This document shows positions 34,549 through 52,585 of a stretch of 64,000 nt of DNA, piece after piece. The position numbers were made by a program, and so were the translations under genes. The DNA is taken from the NCBI RefSeq assembly GCF_006345805.1, contig NC_042997.1:90892001-90956000 (forward strand). The letters run 5' to 3'. This stretch comes from Octopus sinensis. Lineage: Eukaryota. Below the pieces are notes generated by a model. The model was not told the DNA's origin. It made no database searches and worked only from the letters and a program-made list of their open reading frames with translations. Each line of letters begins with the position of its first letter. Position 1 is the stretch's first letter.

Positions 34549-35607
34549 ATAATAATAATAATAATAATAATAATAATTGTGTACAGTGCTCAGGTGCACT
34601 ACAACTCATCTAAAGTGTATATATAATCAGGTGTAGTTTCGACGGATTTCGGGAAGCATGAGGGCCTTAAAGGATGCAGTGTCATGGCAGTCAACAACTG
34701 ATGCAGGCAGTTTATTCCACGCTTCAGCAACCCTGAGCGTGAAAAAATGTTTCCGAAAGTCATGGGAGCTGTGCTGTTTTCTGACTTTGTAGGCATGTCC
34801 ACGTGTGTTAGACACATGGAGATCAAAAAGGTGTTCAGTGTTGTTGTTGGTGAGGTGGTTGATAACCTTGTGGGTGTTTACCAAGTCCGTCGCCAGACGC
34901 CGGAGCTTCAGTGAATCCATGCCCAGGGAAACAAGGCGCTCAGAATATGGTAGGTGTCTGATGGAGGGTATGCGTTTGGTTGCACGTCTCTGGACAGATT
35001 CCAGGAGGTCAATGTTCTGAGCAAGATAGGGATTCCAAACTGATGATGCGAATTCCAAGTGTGGTCGTACCATAGCTGTATACAGTTTTAAATAGATGGC
35101 TGGAGAGCGGCTAACAAAAGTCTTGCTGAGTGATGCCAAGACACCCTCGGCCTTCTTGACAATTTTAGAGATATGCTTTGTCCAACGCAAATCACTGCTG
35201 ACAGTGATGCCTAGGTCACGCTCGCAAGAGGATTTCTTGATATCAGTGTTGTGGAGGGAGTATGTGAACGCAGGGTTTTTTCTCCCAAAATGCATGGTGG
35301 TACACTTGTCCACAGCCAGTTTCAGTTGCCAGTCTGTGATCCATTGCTGCATTGTGTCTAGGTCTGATTGCAGGAAAGAGTTGTAGACATCAGGATCAGT
35401 CCTCTTGATTTCAAGGTACAGCTTGATGTCGTCTGCATATTTCAATACTGTGGCATTCTTTAAATTGGCATCTATGTCATTAATGTATGCCACAAACAGG
35501 AGGGGACCAAGGACAGATCCCTGTGGTACACCCGATGACATCTCATATGGTGTAGAGTGCTGTCCTAGAACTGTGACTACCTCCTTTCGGCTGAGGATGA
35601 AGGATTT
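34549..35607 (-). mobile_element. Young 5'-truncated CR1-clade LINE with (ATT)n tail
   Basis: Uninterrupted 304-aa RT C-terminal ORF 34627-35541 (GVPQGSVLGPLLF, YADD, RPHLEFASSVWNP, TRGH, WNKLP), short 3' UTR, (AAT)n at 34549-34577. Confidence 0.95.
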
Positions 35608-36464
35608 CTTCTCAAAATCTTTAGCACCGTGTCATTGTATCATTTATTTATTGATTAGAACCATATAGACTATGATTGTGCTGAGTAGCGTATTTTTAGA
35701 GATTTGGTCGTTCATAACGCTGCTAGTATTTGGTAGAATGTACTAATTTTAGCAACTATTTTCCATCATAAAGGGACGCAACTCGATACAACGTGCCAAA
35801 GTAAACGAGAGATCTTCGTGATCATTAGATCTGCTAGAATTATTAATCAAAACTCCCTCAAATGAAACTCTAGCGTTATTTGTGTATGGTGGGGATGGGG
35901 AATGTGTGATTCTTGGTTCCCCTGGCATTGAAAAAAATAATAACCCGGATGATCACGACTGGAATATTTCAATTAAAAGTTTACTTGATTGGAGCTGACC
36001 TCAATCTAAACAATAACACAGATTCATACATTTTCTTCTTTTTCTTATGTACTTTTTCAGTCCATGAGTTGTTTTACTGGAGTATCGCGTTGAAAGGTTT
36101 AGTCATTCAAATTTACCCCAGTACTTATTCTATTGTTGTTCTCTTGCTGCTTAACTGCTATGTTACAAGGACGTAAGCAAACCAACACCGTTTGTATTGT
36201 CAAGTGGTAGAAAGCTCAATTCTCAAGCACATGGTTTTGGGTTCAGCCCCACTTCTTGGCACCTTGGACAAATGTCTTCTATTATAGCCCTAGGTTGGCC
36301 AAAGCTTTGTGAGTGGATTTGAGAGATGGAAACGCATATAAGTGTTTGTGTTGCCTTGTCTCAACACCCACATGATAGTTATAAATGAGTGTCATCATCA
36401 TACAAGCAATGCTGTTTGTTTCTAACCTTCTGTGAATATATGTCCAGTCATGAAGAAATATTGA

Positions 36465-47419: not shown

Positions 47420-48406
47420 ATTCCCAACATTTACACACAAAATTGTTATTATGAAGTTGGTAATAGGGAGGTAAAGCATCGGTAAGCTGCCTTGTCGTTT
47501 TCAATCATGTCAGTTTATGTTCTGAGTACAAATTTTGTCAGGGTAGGACTATTACCCAATTTGAAGTTTTTTTCAATTGCAATAAAACAGTGTTTTCTCT
47601 ACCTTTGGTATTCAAGTACTATTTTCTCCACCTTGTTTTGTACCCGTGTGCTCATTTATGTATGTGTATGTGTATTGTATATATACATATATACTCACAC
47701 ACAATATAAATACAATGTGAACAATATATTTATGCATATATCATTCAACTACAGTTCTTAATGTAGTTTTTTTGTTGCAGTCGGCGTCTTCCAAGCAGTC
47801 TCACTAATTCAGTTTTAATCGAAATCAAATTTAGTTTTTTGAATTATGCTTGACTAGTGATAAGCTACATTTAGACATAAAATACTTAAAATCTGGTGCT
47901 GTTGAACAAAAGTTAAGAGAGAAAACGTATAGCCCAAATTGGTTGACTGGCGGGTAGTAACGCCCGACATCGACACTTTGAATCCACATCATTCTTTTAA
48001 TTTTGAGTAAGAATTATTATATTGATATTAATATGAAAGAGAAACGTTAAAGGAATATATTGGTAAAGGTTTCGTAAAATTTTATCCATTAGAAAAAAGG
48101 GTATTTAATTTTAATTCTCAAATTTTAATCAATTTTTGCGTGATATTAAAGGGACACTACTTATATATGAAACTAACCTATTTCTTAGACGCACACACAA
48201 CAGAAGATAAAAGAACACAAATCGATACAAAGAGTTCTAATATTTATTTTCATTAGTCTAAATTATTTTTTATAAAAAATGAAATTATTTTTAATAAAAA
48301 ATGAAATTTTTTTCGTAACTTTTTTGGAGTATGGCTTTTTAAAGTCCATTATTGAATAAATTATTTTAATAACAAGATTATTTAATAAAATATTTTTTTA
48401 AAATTA

Positions 48407-48464
48407 TTTTGTCTCTATGGACAGTACTGAATCATGTAGTAGGGCTGTTCAGAAAAGGCAAATG
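48407..48464 (+). repeat. 58-bp hairpin-forming direct repeat, copy 1
   Basis: 52/58 identical to 51831-51888. Confidence 0.9.
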
Positions 48465-51400
48465 ACAAAAATTCAAATATTTTAACACTCAATTTTCACT
48501 ATTTTAAAATTTTGAAACACGGAGTTAATTATTTGTATGTTAAAAATGACTTTATTTATTAATTTGATAGTAAATATAATATGATTAAATTTTTTATTGC
48601 CTTCACAGTGTTTACTGTTTTATAAAATCAAACTTGAAAACTGGACAAAACAGAGACACAATTGAAAAAAATTAAAAAGAAAAAAAAGAAAGAAGAAAGA
48701 GAAAAAAGGGGAAAAAAAACCCAAAAAACAACAACAAAACAATTCACCACCTTGGGTTAAAAAGTTGGGGGTGATGGGAAACCTTTCTAATGGCTATTGA
48801 GACACACCAGAATTTTTGCAGTGTTATCACGTTTGATGGTAGGGCTGATGCGCTGGGGATGTTTGCCCAGTCCAAGCTCCTCTTAAGTATCAGGTTCAGC
48901 TCCGTATGACACATGAAGCAACCAGCATTCAGGTGGCAAGAAAGGCCATGGAGGCTTGTGAAGTCGAGGAGCTGTCACAATGACAAAATCAAACCCATGC
49001 AAATGTCAGCTCTCACTCTGAGGGCAATGGAGACATGAAGTTTGTCAAAGCTGAGTAGGCCACCAACATTAGCCACAGGGATGGCATCAATCCAGCCACC
49101 TGAGTATTTGGCGCTAGCAGACAGTAAGTGGTAGCTTGAAAACTGGTCCAACTGGATGAAGAGGGAGTTGAAGGTGGCCTTCGAAATTATGTTGTCCCAA
49201 GCTATCTGACACCAACGGTCCTCCACCTTCTCAGGAGCAGATAAACCCAATTCCCTCCAGTGTTGGAGAGCTTCATCCAACTCCTTGTTAGAACTGGTCC
49301 ATGTTGGAGAGGAGAGGATGTTGCCCACCAGGGTGGAGAAGGCGTGGGTGGAGGAAAGGAAGCAGGGGAGGGAGACGGACGAACACTTACCAAGACCAAG
49401 ACCTCCAAATCACTTGGGCAATGCAGCCTGATCGCAGAACGTTGGAAAGAGTCCGACATTGTCTAAGCATTTGAATCTCTCAAAGATTTGGTTGTCGAAG
49501 TGTTGGAGGTACGATAGGAATCGGTAAGATGAGCTGACTCTGAGTAAATACAGGAAGCTTAGTGATCAAGAGGTAATTCCTAGGTATGAAAAAACCTTGA
49601 TGGGGTTCGATAGCTTCAATATTTTTCAGCAATTGCTCAAGGGCAGCCACCTTCAACTGGAAGATGGACTCAAAAGCAAGGTCAGTGACTGGGGCACCTT
49701 GAGAGTACCAAGCTGATGGGGGAGGGACTGCGATGGAAGGGAAGGACTCTGCATAAAGGCTAATAGTTGGTTGATGTTGAGACGTCAGGTGGTTGAGGAT
49801 CCAGAGCTCACATTTGGAGCTGTTTACTTGGAGATCTCAGCAACCAAACTCCCCAACCATCATGTTTGCAATGGTGAGAACCCAGTCCAGAAGTCCTGCC
49901 AAACAAGCATTGTTGAGATAGCAGATGTTGAGGTCTAACTCAATGCTCATTTTGGTGATGTCATCAATGCTCAGAGCAGACTTGAGTGGGTCGCTCTGTT
50001 GGACTCCTGAGGTGGAGGTGACGATTTGGTCAGCGAAAGAGAGATAGGAGGGCTCCTAATAAGCCTGCCATGCAAGGCAGTAGAGTTGTGGGACTCTCTC
50101 TCTTACTGAGCTGAGGAGAGCATCACGGCTGATGGAATTGAAGGCATTCTTAAGGTCAAGTTTGAGGATGACCTTGGATGACAAGGAGAGCAAGTTGGCA
50201 TAGGCTCTGGTAGCGTAGGCAGCAGTTTCACATCCCAATTTAGTGCCCACTCCTAGCTGGGTGGGGGAAAATCCCTCCTCCAATAAGCTAGAGACTGATT
50301 GTAAGCACACCTTTGCAGTGAGATGGCGAAGGGTGCAGCCAACTGCAATGGGGCACAGGTCTCCATTGGAGTTGGTGAACCCAAATAATTTTGCACTGAA
50401 GAATAATGGGCAGATATAAGGGAGGACGTTTGCTGAAGAGAACTGGTTCGGAAATTGAGTCAAATTCTACAAGAGCTCAAGTCTGGCGTTACCGGCCGGT
50501 AAGGAGATACTGTCTTTGAAGTGTTGAAGCTGAAGGCCATCAATTCCCGCACCTGAACCAGCAGGGAAGGATGAGATCGCCTTTCTGATGTTATCAGAGG
50601 TGAAGACCACTCTCGAGTATTCAGGGGGATCAAGTCAGTTTAGTTGATTATCAGAGGGTGCCGATGAGTGCTTCTCTTTCAAACGTCTAAGATACTCAGA
50701 GTCACACAGAGCCAGGGAGGAGATGGACAACACCTTTTATATCAAATTGACTGTGCACTTAAGGTTTATCAGTTGCCTATCGCTAGGCACTGTGCTTGAT
50801 GTCAAATTGAGGTGAGAAGTGGTCAGAGTGGACTCAAATAGCTGGAACTGCCACTTGAGTGAGGATGTAAAGGGGCTTGACTTCACATCGTGCATGTGGA
50901 GAGAGATGCGGAGGAACAGAAGCAGTTTCTGCCAGTCGGACACATTGATGGATAAACACATTTTTCAACAAGCTGGAGAGCACATGAGCAAAGTTATTCT
51001 GATCTCCCGTAGGGATCTTGTTAATGATCTTCGATTTAGATAAACCCTGGAGGGCTGCAGCAAAGTCCTCAGTAGAAATCTGGTTGTTGAAGTGTGAGGC
51101 ATCTTCACGGAGTGTGTTGGAGCTGAAGTAGCACTGACTGTGAGTCTAGTATGGAATACTTTTGGTTTGTGCCTTGGTGATGTGGACACAACTCCTGTGG
51201 TAATTCTGGGGACACAAGTGACAATTAATTGTCTTTAAGTAACGGCTAGTGCAAGCACAGTCAGGTGGTGAGCTAGCATCAGCTGAGAGTGGAGGGCTAG
51301 CTTTGGAACTCAACCAAGGGAGTGCAGCATTGGTTCCGAAGGTGGGACTAGAATAGAGGTTGGGTGGTGTGGGGGAGGGTTAGAAGTTGTAGGAGTGGTG

Positions 51401-51830
51401 GGGTTGGCAGGGTTAATTCCATTTCCATTGGTGGGGCTGGAACAAAGGCCAGGTGAAAGTTGTAGGAGTGATGGGGTTGGTAGGGTTAATTCCGTTCAGA
51501 ACCCATGATGGAGCGAGGTTAACTTCTCTCAAGTGTACTGAAATTGGTGGAGAATGAGAGGTCAGAGGTTGATCTATTGTCACACAGTCGCTCCACCAGG
51601 CAGGTCTCTTGGTTGTTCAATGCATGCCTCCGCCACCAAGAATGGATGGGTTAAAGTGGTGGCAACCCTACCAATCGTCAGTCATTGACGATTGGGAGAT
51701 AAAGAGCAATGAATATACAAGAATGGTGGTGATGGAAAGAGGGAGAGAAGAAAAGACAAGAAAAGTGACAAAACTTTACAGAGCGCTATCAAAAAAGTTT
51801 AAAGAGTCATGCACATGCGACTATCTGTGG
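48465..51830 (-). mobile_element. Decayed near-full-length CRE-clade non-LTR retrotransposon
   Basis: SFPAGSGAGIDGL..HFKD; PIAVGCTLRHLTAK; PTQLGVG; KLDLKNAFNSISR; GVQQSDPL; YLNN (cf. YLDD); HCPSDLEVL/GGLG region; SGGWIDAIP..IALRV; C-terminal QRISPTIKRDNTA (cf. QRISIAIQRGNA). Pro/Thr-rich N-terminus; many frameshifts. Confidence 0.85.
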
Positions 51831-51888
51831 TTTTGTCTCTATGAGCAGTACTGAAGTCTGTAGTAGGGCTGTTCAGAAAAGGTAAATG
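51831..51888 (+). repeat. 58-bp hairpin-forming direct repeat, copy 2 (third diverged copy 51995-52051)
   Basis: TTTTGTCTCTATG..CTGTTCAGAAAAGGYAAATG. Confidence 0.9.
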
Positions 51889-52230
51889 CTACTTGTAATT
51901 ATATTCTATTCAATAAAATCATTTTATTAAATTTGTCTCCTCATTATTTTTTTCCATTATTTAAAAAAATTCTTTAAATATATTCATTTGTAACTTTGTC
52001 TCTGTACAGCACCAAAATTACAGTACCTACATTATGTCCAGAAAAGGCAAAGTTGCAATGATTATCATTCGTTTTTAGTTTAATTTCTAAATGAGAATTA
52101 GTCAAATTTTAAAAAATCAAAATTTTGTTTGAATTTTCTTGGAAATTTTGGAATTCAAAATGACAGCAAAAAATTGTAATTTCATATATTTTTAATTAAA
52201 ATTTGACTGCAATGCCTGTAAAAACACTGG

Positions 52231-52585
52231 ACTAGCCAATGAAAAATCCTGATGCATACTAACTGTATTCTTAGCAATTAAACCTGGAAAAGTAGAGGAC
52301 AAGAAAAAACTCATTAAAATTAGAGCTTAAAATATTACTAAAATTAAAATTAAAAAAAATTTTTTATTAATTCATTTAGTACAAAAATAAAATTAAAATA
52401 TAAAAGGAAAAGTGAAATTAATTGAATTTTTAAAAAAATATGAAAAAATACCTAAGAGGTACTTTTTAATTTTAATAGCAATATTTTAAGCTCTAATTTT
52501 AATGCGTTTTTTCTTGTCCTCTACTTTTCCATGTTTAATTGTTAGGAATATAGTTAGTATGTGTCTGCATTTTTCATTGGCTAGT
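52231..52585. mobile_element. Foldback MITE with ~120-bp inverted arms
   Basis: ACTAGCCAATGAAAAAT..GGAAAAGTAGAGGACAAGAAAAAAC..TTAGAGCTTAAAATATT mirrored at ~52465-52585. Confidence 0.85.

What the first reader, a model, noticed from the sequence alone, without database searches (positions are those of the whole stretch)
48407..52051. CRE-clade retrotransposon bracketed by a structure-conserving 58-bp hairpin repeat: candidate new site-specific target or terminal RNA element
Seen: direct repeats at 48407-48464 and 51831-51888 enclose the whole element. They fold on the + strand (antisense to the ORF) as UUUGUCU/AGGYAAA, UGRRCAG/CUGUUCA and UACUG/UAGUA. All 6 differences are structure-neutral: three in the loop, three swapping Watson-Crick for G-U. 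A third, more diverged copy (51995-52051) keeps both stem ends, and an inverted collapsed trace lies at 48641-48660. Known: CRE elements (CRE1, SLACS, CZAR, MoTeR) are often site-specific for repeated RNA genes or repeats and can make long TSDs. Inference: an undescribed small structured RNA or tandem unit is the target, or the hairpin is an element-borne terminal cis signal. With only 6 changes, chance cannot be excluded.
Basis: partly seen in the sequence, partly recalled or inferred. Interest (0 to 1): 0.75.

Follow-up and report, generated by a model that had tools for sequence, protein, structure and literature searches.

The report
Helitrons carrying microRNA-like hairpin cargo
The repeats are not a retrotransposon's target or end signal but two of three internal hairpins of a rolling-circle transposon into which a broken retrotransposon jumped, likely once; related transposon families keep the hairpin's base pairing while its sequence changes, so it is likely a structured RNA, possibly a microRNA gene, carried as cargo.

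Summary
The repeats are real, but they are neither a target-site duplication nor ends of the retrotransposon. They are internal units A, B and C of a 1.64-kb non-autonomous Helitron (47741-52584; A|TC...CTAG|T); empty copies carry all three about 190 bp apart. A 5'-truncated, decayed RT-RLE (CRE-like) element (48588-51821) inserted between A and B, likely once, and the Helitron likely copied the composite to 7 loci (same junctions, shared private base). 40 of 45 retrotransposon 3' ends lie elsewhere, so it is not site-specific. Dead hairpin copies decay neutrally. Two other Helitron families, only ~70% alike at the 5' end, carry 3 and 1 homologues with a 94-98% identical core and compensatory stem changes. 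Sister subfamilies spread without it, so it is cargo. No copy outside Helitrons and no Rfam match were found. Best reading: a Helitron-borne, pri-miRNA-like RNA once under selection; expression is untested. The scan noted LINE nests in Helitrons (this genome) and miRNA-like clusters in Mavericks (other genomes) before.

The parts
47741..48587 (+). 5' part of a non-autonomous Helitron (family 1; positions 1-848 of a 1640-bp empty copy); starts TC after an A; its terminal 5' hairpin is partly deleted in this copy
   Evidence: (23 of 23 5' ends follow A; 21 start TC)
48407..48464 (+). Hairpin unit A core (first '58-bp repeat'); extended fold about 48386-48484
   Evidence: (z -3.4)
48576..48587 (+). 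Outer 5' arm of hairpin B's basal stem, cut off from the rest by the insertion; holds the composite-specific T at 48577 (G in most empty copies)
48588..51821 (-). 5'-truncated, decayed RT-RLE (CRE-like) non-LTR retrotransposon; 3' end with AATAAA and short A-rich tail at 48588; internal deletion of about 345 bp at 48855/48856 removes most of the endonuclease; TA repeated at 48586-48587 and 51822-51823
48641..48660 (-).
   Evidence: (29 of 29 other 3'-end loci)
51822..52584 (+). 3' part of the same Helitron; ends CTAG before T
51831..51888 (+). Hairpin unit B core (second '58-bp repeat'); its 3' basal arm runs to about 51907 and has lost its partner here (z -0.65, against -4.2 to -7.0 in 3 of 3 empty copies folded)
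51995..52053 (+). Hairpin unit C, the diverged third unit
52231..52585 (.). Inverted duplication of the Helitron 3' end (110-nt arms, 91% complementary); holds the 12-nt sub-terminal palindrome (52559-52570) 10 nt before CTAG

Best explanation
The three repeats are internal hairpin units of a non-autonomous Helitron; a 5'-truncated CRE-like retrotransposon inserted into the base of unit B, likely once, the Helitron likely copied the composite to at least seven loci, and the hairpin itself is likely a structured RNA gene (predicted pri-miRNA-like) carried as cargo. Shown: Helitron ends, empty sites, junction identity, lack of target specificity, neutral decay of present copies, strand-specific ~100-nt fold, compensatory changes between units of three families, and spread of sister subfamilies without the hairpin. 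Inferred: target-primed insertion with early 5' truncation; mobilisation in trans by one of the genome's many RepHel transposases; past purifying selection on the RNA fold in the active Helitron lineage or in a host source that is lost or not assembled. Predicted and untested: transcription on the TC-to-CTAG strand and Drosha/Dicer processing of the conserved ~58-nt core into a small RNA (about 0.4 alone).
For: Helitron; definition in PMC4067079 and PMC11417382 (passages). Empty sites: of 27 spacer segments, 18 empty, 6 retrotransposon-filled, 3 other (one empty row was mislabelled by the script and corrected by eye). One origin: same 3' junction in 6 of 6 loci; same 5' break in 2 of 2 that keep it; host T in 4 of 4 informative composites against 0 of 21 others, Fisher 8e-5; 3 shared private sites in the retrotransposon against 0.72 expected, P 0.04; flanks share only other repeats. 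The 3' junction is bridged by a 148-nt contig with 0 differences in run X12. RNA fold: majority units A-F have RNA z -2.3 to -8.2 on + and weaker folds on - (6 of 6 by energy and z), with 5-10 G-U pairs on + in 5 of 6. Core changes 1/50 (B vs E) and 0/50 (A vs D) against 16/49 and 13/44 outside the core. Neutral-mutation nulls reach the observed energy in 0-2 of 400 runs for B to D, E, F, G (random positions). 32 real copies: 86% paired, 50 double-change cells against 15.5 shuffled and 5-21 in slid controls. No hairpin in 0 of 20 loci of sister subfamilies, i.e. none hit (positive control).
Against: The retrotransposon tree is a star and does not group the composites (5 changes, as shuffled), and composite-composite host distance (0.138) equals the background (0.132-0.136), so a single origin rests on junctions and a few sites. 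Units A and C do not beat the nulls (B to A 87/400, B to C 91/400, D to A 38/400), and B to E fails the same-position null (65/400). The structure was derived from these sequences, and the double-change cells reflect only about five independent events; RNAalifold alone recovers only 11 core pairs. Arms of 41-51 nt exceed the usual ~35-bp pri-miRNA stem (recalled); CNNC at the expected distance is in 1 of 6 units and basal UG at -14 in 1 of 6. No Rfam match. No autonomous partner was tied to these ends.
Confidence: 0.62

Rival explanations
1. The retrotransposon has a weak preference for this Helitron site (the base of hairpin B) and inserted there several times independently.
For: 6 of 46 known 3' ends share the site. 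The tree does not group them. An unrelated TIR element sits within 2 nt of the same site in L003/L142. RLE elements often target repeats, including transposons (PMC4640811, passages).
Against: Identical 5' truncation in 2 of 2. A private host base in 4 of 4 against 0 of 21. 40 of 45 3' ends have unrelated AT-rich flanks. The same Helitron spread a second nested element from one fixed position to at least 6 loci.
Confidence: 0.1
2. The hairpin is a protein-binding RNA element, or a single-stranded-DNA hairpin on the displaced strand (like a single-strand origin of rolling-circle plasmids), that helped the autonomous Helitron, not a miRNA.
For: It lies on the TC-to-CTAG strand, which is the displaced strand in rolling-circle models (recalled). 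DNA-parameter z is -2.9 to -5.2 for 4 of 6 units. It was found only inside Helitrons. miRNA motifs are mostly absent.
Against: Two sister subfamilies with the same ends spread without it, so it is not needed in cis. RNA parameters give stronger z than DNA parameters in 6 of 6 units.
Confidence: 0.25
3. The hairpins are neutral relics of a small palindrome or MITE that duplicated inside the Helitron and was homogenised by sequence exchange between families.
For: Present copies decay at the family's average rate (unit A 0.076 against 0.073-0.077 for the 5' and left parts) with no pairing bias. Helitrons hold internal repeats (PMC4067079, passages).
Against: The core is conserved while the outer stems differ yet still pair, the reverse of a MITE. 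Compensatory pairs and G-U bias to one strand. No free copy outside Helitrons.
Confidence: 0.15
4. One reading: the repeats are a long TSD of a site-specific CRE element in a small-RNA gene array, or the element's own terminal RNA signal.
For: Two 90%-identical copies do bracket the element. The site lies in the basal stem of a structured hairpin.
Against: Empty Helitrons hold both copies already, about 195 bp apart. The repeats are 123 and 9 bp from the element ends. Free copies lack them.
Confidence: 0.02

Closest known systems
Helibat composites with nested retrogenes (bat Helitrons; Thomas et al. 2014, PMC4224331, passages)
   Same: A 5'-truncated retroposed sequence inserted into a non-autonomous Helitron, empty exemplars exist, and the composite was then amplified (4 cases, 118 copies).
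   Different: There the passenger is an L1-retroposed mRNA; here it is an RT-RLE retrotransposon itself, in 7 decayed loci.
Canonical non-autonomous Helitron (HLE1; PMC11417382, PMC4067079, passages)
   Same: 5' TC, 3' CTAG, insertion between A and T, short palindrome 10 nt before the end, no coding capacity.
   Different: The palindrome is 12 nt (16-20 is canonical). There is an added 5'-terminal hairpin, a 12-nt sub-terminal inverted repeat and an inverted 3'-end duplication; families 2 and 3 end GTAA.
CRE-clade elements (CRE1/2, SLACS, CZAR, MoTeR, Cnl1, FoTeR; PMC12857005, PMC4640811, passages)
   Same: RT followed by a CCHC knuckle, RH, E, KPD and D motifs in nearly the published spacing.
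   Different: No target specificity, no long TSD, all inspected copies decayed; clade placement was not tested by a tree.
Clustered pri-miRNA paralogues, including virus-encoded clusters (general knowledge, recalled); Helitron-derived bat miRNAs (Platt et al. 2014, recalled, not seen)
   Same: Conserved ~58-nt core, variable loop, covarying basal stem, G-U-rich one-strand hairpins in AT-rich spacers.
   Different: Carried inside a transposon and conserved between its families rather than born from its palindromes; the stem is longer than usual; no reads shown.

Membership tests
Helitron (HLE1) | 5' TC terminus | tested here: met
   21 of 23 family-1 ends (2 carry small deletions); 20 of 20 further loci were picked by a TC-starting pattern
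Helitron (HLE1) | 3' CTRR terminus | tested here: met
   CTAG at 52581-52584; 25 of 40 matched ends (outer ends and their inner inverted copies) read CTAG, the rest 1-2 changes; families 2 and 3 end GTAA
Helitron (HLE1) | Insertion between A and T without TSD | tested here: met
   A precedes 23 of 23 5' ends; T follows 37 of 40 3' matches; L004 flanks show no TA duplication
Helitron (HLE1) | 16-20-nt palindrome about 11 nt from the 3' end | tested here: inconclusive
   A 12-nt palindrome 10 nt before CTAG: right place, short
Helitron (HLE1) | RepHel-coding partner with the same ends | tested here: inconclusive
   1309 Helitron_like_N candidates in the genome, 150 scored; by eye none of the 150 lies within 20 kb of the family ends listed
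Helentron/HINE (HLE2) | Insertion in TT with sub-terminal inverted repeats | tested here: not met
   A 12-nt sub-terminal inverted repeat exists, but the target is A^T
CRE clade | Single ORF with RT and C-terminal CCHC plus restriction-like endonuclease | tested here: met
   RVT_1 E 4e-5, below Pfam's cut-off; L084 reads C-x-C-x9-H-x3-C-x8-RH-x-x19-E-x10-KPD-x15-D against the motif in PMC12857005; colinear with full-length homologue P0004
CRE clade | RT phylogeny with CRE1/SLACS/Cnl1 | not tested
   No named reference proteins were returned
Site-specific CRE elements | Most copies in one target sequence | tested here: not met
   40 of 45 3' ends outside the Helitron; their flanks do not match each other except one duplicated pair
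Target-site duplication | One copy at the empty site, two abutting the insert | tested here: not met
   Empty sites hold both copies; gaps of 123 and 9 bp to the element ends
Canonical animal miRNA | Imperfect hairpin with at least 16 pairs between ~22-nt arms; arms conserved, loop variable | tested here: met
   19 pairs in the 58-nt core; core against flank conservation p about 2-3e-5
Canonical animal miRNA | About 35-bp stem and UG/CNNC processing motifs | tested here: inconclusive
   34-41 pairs, arms 41-51 nt; each motif in 1 of 6 units; the expected values are recalled
Canonical animal miRNA | Reads from both arms with homogeneous 5' ends and 2-nt overhangs | not testable with these tools
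   Only contig-level runs were offered
Known RNA families (Rfam 15) | Match above the gathering score | tested here: not met

The most novel reading that the evidence does not exclude
A Helitron lineage encodes its own microRNA family: one to three pri-miRNA hairpins kept by selection across families that are otherwise barely alignable, expressed from the element to tune host genes or anti-transposon defence as DNA viruses do, and scattered to more than 100 places in this genome.
Probability: 0.3. Interest if true: 0.8.

Novelty: new variant of a known kind. Interest (0 to 1): 0.46.

Why it matters
The finding as posed is ordinary nesting, and it shows that a Helitron's internal repeats can mimic a long TSD. 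Two things remain of value. First, it is a likely case of a Helitron spreading a retrotransposon fragment, which inflates apparent target preference. Second, a structurally conserved hairpin is confined to three Helitron families (117 arm matches). If processed, it would be a miRNA family maintained inside a rolling-circle transposon and a concrete route by which new miRNA genes could be seeded, in an animal group (octopus, per the scan's earlier notes) where a large unexplained miRNA expansion was reported (PMC9699675, title and passages). Existing small-RNA libraries can test this directly.

Tried and rejected
Long TSD, terminal signal and site specificity: rejected. Segmental duplication as the source of the composites: flanks share only other repeats. 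Tree of 45 retrotransposon 3' regions: an unresolved star; the window copy was left out because of its deletion. SECIS, H/ACA (ACA after the stem only in units A and D), coding mini-exons and K-turn were considered by eye from recalled consensus and dropped, because the needed letters are not kept across units. Rfam: nothing above gathering for the hairpin. Expression: no RNA holder listed; two guessed-RNA contig runs cover parts of the family at low depth, which is no evidence either way. Octopus miRNA sequences: arm words were not found in the readable supplements of PMC9699675 (file 3 has no sequence table by its sheet list, file 1 was unreadable, file 2 was not searched) or of PMC11701709, so a match to an annotated novel MirGeneDB family is open. 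Viral contigs: 0 matches. Metagenome contigs: 1 match, no hairpin, chance. Host source locus: all 53 exact 22-nt arm matches and 40 of 40 newly fetched arm loci lie in families 1-3; part of the 117 looser matches was not inspected, and 17 were not listed. My early idea that a 'sister subfamily at host position 439' lacks hairpins was wrong: it is a nested TIR element. Literature searches (Helitron carrying a LINE; octopus Helitrons; Helitron-encoded miRNA) listed no paper on this element or on a conserved Helitron-borne miRNA; I saw listings only.
Full report
Observation. The direct repeat 48407-48464 / 51831-51888 is real, 52 of 58 identical, and folds as described on the + strand (z -3.1 and -1.1; the third copy folds differently, z -0.6). 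Between the copies lies a decayed retrotransposon on the - strand: RVT_1 at E 4e-5, colinear with a full-length RT-RLE homologue. A less damaged genomic copy shows the CCHC, RH, E, KPD and D motifs within one residue of the spacing given for SLACS/CRE in PMC12857005 (passages). The window copy has lost about 345 bp of the endonuclease region. Clade placement by phylogeny was not done. The genome has 2.72 Gb; the label 'octopus' comes from the scan's earlier notes, not from my calls.

The repeats are parts of a Helitron. A genome search with repeat B gave 43 matches (77 candidates, 40 scored). All 30 loci fetched (some overlap) carry the window's own flanks, usually as A - about 137 bp - B - about 130 bp - C with no retrotransposon. 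The empty element is 1640 bp. Its 5' end follows A in 23 of 23 cases and starts TC in 21; its 3' end is CTAG before T, with a 12-nt palindrome 10 nt upstream. This is the canonical Helitron signature (PMC4067079, PMC11417382, PMC4224331; passages). In the window it spans 47741-52584. Of 27 spacer segments held, 18 are empty, 6 hold the retrotransposon and 3 hold something else (the script mislabelled one empty row). So the repeats existed before the insertion. They lie 123 bp and 9 bp from the element's ends, and only TA is repeated at the junctions.

The retrotransposon is not site-specific. Of 45 distinct 3' ends in the loci held, 40 lie outside the Helitron, and the hairpin is upstream of 4, all composites (one more composite escaped that anchor). 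Seven near-full-length free copies run on 100-400 bp beyond the window's 5' break and have no hairpin nearby. The 'collapsed trace' is 3' UTR present in 29 of 29 other 3'-end loci.

One insertion, then copying. Six loci on six contigs share the 3' junction, and a seventh shares the window's exact 5' break. Four of four informative composites have T ten bases from the junction where 0 of 21 others do (Fisher 8e-5). Three sites inside the retrotransposon are private to composites, 0.72 expected, P 0.04 (one 26%-diverged copy left out). Flanks beyond the Helitron ends share only other repeats. A 148-nt contig from run X12 bridges the 3' junction without a difference, and run X13 shows the empty form as a loose end. 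Against this: a 45-row tree is a star and does not group the composites, and composite hosts are no closer to each other than to empties (0.138 against 0.136). That fits copying soon after insertion but does not prove it. The same Helitron spread a second nested TIR element from one position to at least six loci. The genome holds many RepHel frames, but no partner was linked. The precedent is the nested retrogenes amplified by bat Helitrons (PMC4224331, passages).

Three are fixed differences between units A and B. Among present copies, stems mutate as fast as loops (ratios 1.16 and 0.84), pair-keeping transitions are not in clear excess (28:18, p 0.09; distinct 17:12, p 0.23), and a 44-copy alignment pairs no better than shuffles (105 of 500). 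The copies are dead.

What the hairpin is. In empty copies unit B extends to a 96-nt stem-loop of -30 to -40 kcal/mol, z -4.2 to -7.0, much weaker on the other strand. The insertion site splits its basal stem, and the window's remnant has z -0.65. One outlying match led to a second Helitron family with the same 5' terminal hairpin and three units D, E, F. An arm pattern (117 matches, 0 in the reversed control) revealed a third family with one unit, G. Between family 1 and families 2 and 3, BLAST aligns only the first 190 bp (70-73%), the hairpins with adjoining bases (cores 94-96%) and short pieces, mostly at the 3' end. Majority units A-F all fold better on the TC-to-CTAG strand, with RNA z -2.3 to -8.2 and weaker DNA z. 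B and E differ at 1 of 50 core and 16 of 49 outer positions; A and D at 0 of 50 and 13 of 44. Random mutation of B to the same degree reaches the energy of D, E, F or G in 1, 2, 0 and 0 of 400 runs (random positions) and 0, 65, 5 and 5 of 400 (same positions); A and C do not pass. In 32 real copies of B, D, E, F and G, 86% of cells pair and 50 cells show double changes, against 15.5 shuffled and 5-21 in slid controls; examples are A-U/G-C at columns 50:81 and 17:114, U-A/G-C at 38:93 and U-A/C-G at 26:105. These are about five events, on a structure taken from the same sequences, so they are good but not decisive evidence of past selection on an RNA fold.

Cargo, not a cis signal. The shared 5' end has 349 near-exact matches. 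Of 20 such loci fetched, none holds the hairpin (positive control); 13 belong to two amplified subfamilies that join the same ends without it. No copy outside Helitrons was found among 53 exact arm matches and 40 newly fetched loci, and there is no Rfam family for it. A conserved pre-miRNA-sized core, variable loop and covarying basal stem in a cluster of three is the pattern of paralogous pri-miRNAs (recalled). The stems are longer than usual, and processing motifs occur in only 1 of 6 units. Expression could not be tested, and supplements that might list cephalopod miRNA sequences were unreadable or held none.

Verdict. The CRE-target and terminal-signal ideas are refuted; the locus is a retrotransposon nested in a Helitron and likely copied with it (about 0.85). 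The hairpin is likely a once-selected structured RNA carried by three Helitron families (about 0.7), most likely pri-miRNA-like (about 0.4). Interest 0.46; a new variant of a known kind.

Noticed in passing
L153, L160, L167, L169, L172, L176 (host position about 439; window about 48163): A second nested cargo of the same Helitron: a 0.9-1.1-kb element with terminal inverted repeats and a 7-8-bp duplication at one fixed position in at least 6 loci.
   Followed up: partly
L003/L142 (G000:C15:11.849 Mb): An unrelated TIR element with a ~7-bp duplication inserted within 2 nt of the retrotransposon's site in the basal stem of hairpin B; one case only.
   Followed up: no
window 47741-47770; L159, L162, L153, L167, families 2 and 3: The Helitron's 5'-terminal hairpin shows a paired change (TAC/GTA against CAC/GTG) between subfamilies and loop inversion in 2 copies; a 5' hairpin is not part of the usual HLE1 definition.
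   Followed up: partly
window 52231-52585; families 2 and 3: All three families carry an inverted internal copy of their own 3' end, giving a long terminal palindrome.
   Followed up: no
G000 unplaced contigs (e.g. L225, C12878:7055): Many related RT-RLE frames of 800-1075 aa without stops lie on unplaced contigs; one has an N-terminal PHD-like finger.
   Followed up: no
G000:C18:36.29-36.52 Mb: At least 8 copies of the Helitron's 5' half with unit A, spaced 17-50 kb, inside what looks like a local duplicated cluster.
   Followed up: no
L082-L088, just beyond the window's 5' break: The free retrotransposon's 5' region holds a GCCATTTTG word on the sense strand, like the YY1 site of L1 promoters (motif recalled).
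   Followed up: no
window 34627-35631 (-): A 334-aa open frame of another LINE reverse transcriptase C-terminal half.
   Followed up: no
L262:26-148: A U4 snRNA-like match just above Rfam's gathering score near a family-2 copy.
   Followed up: no
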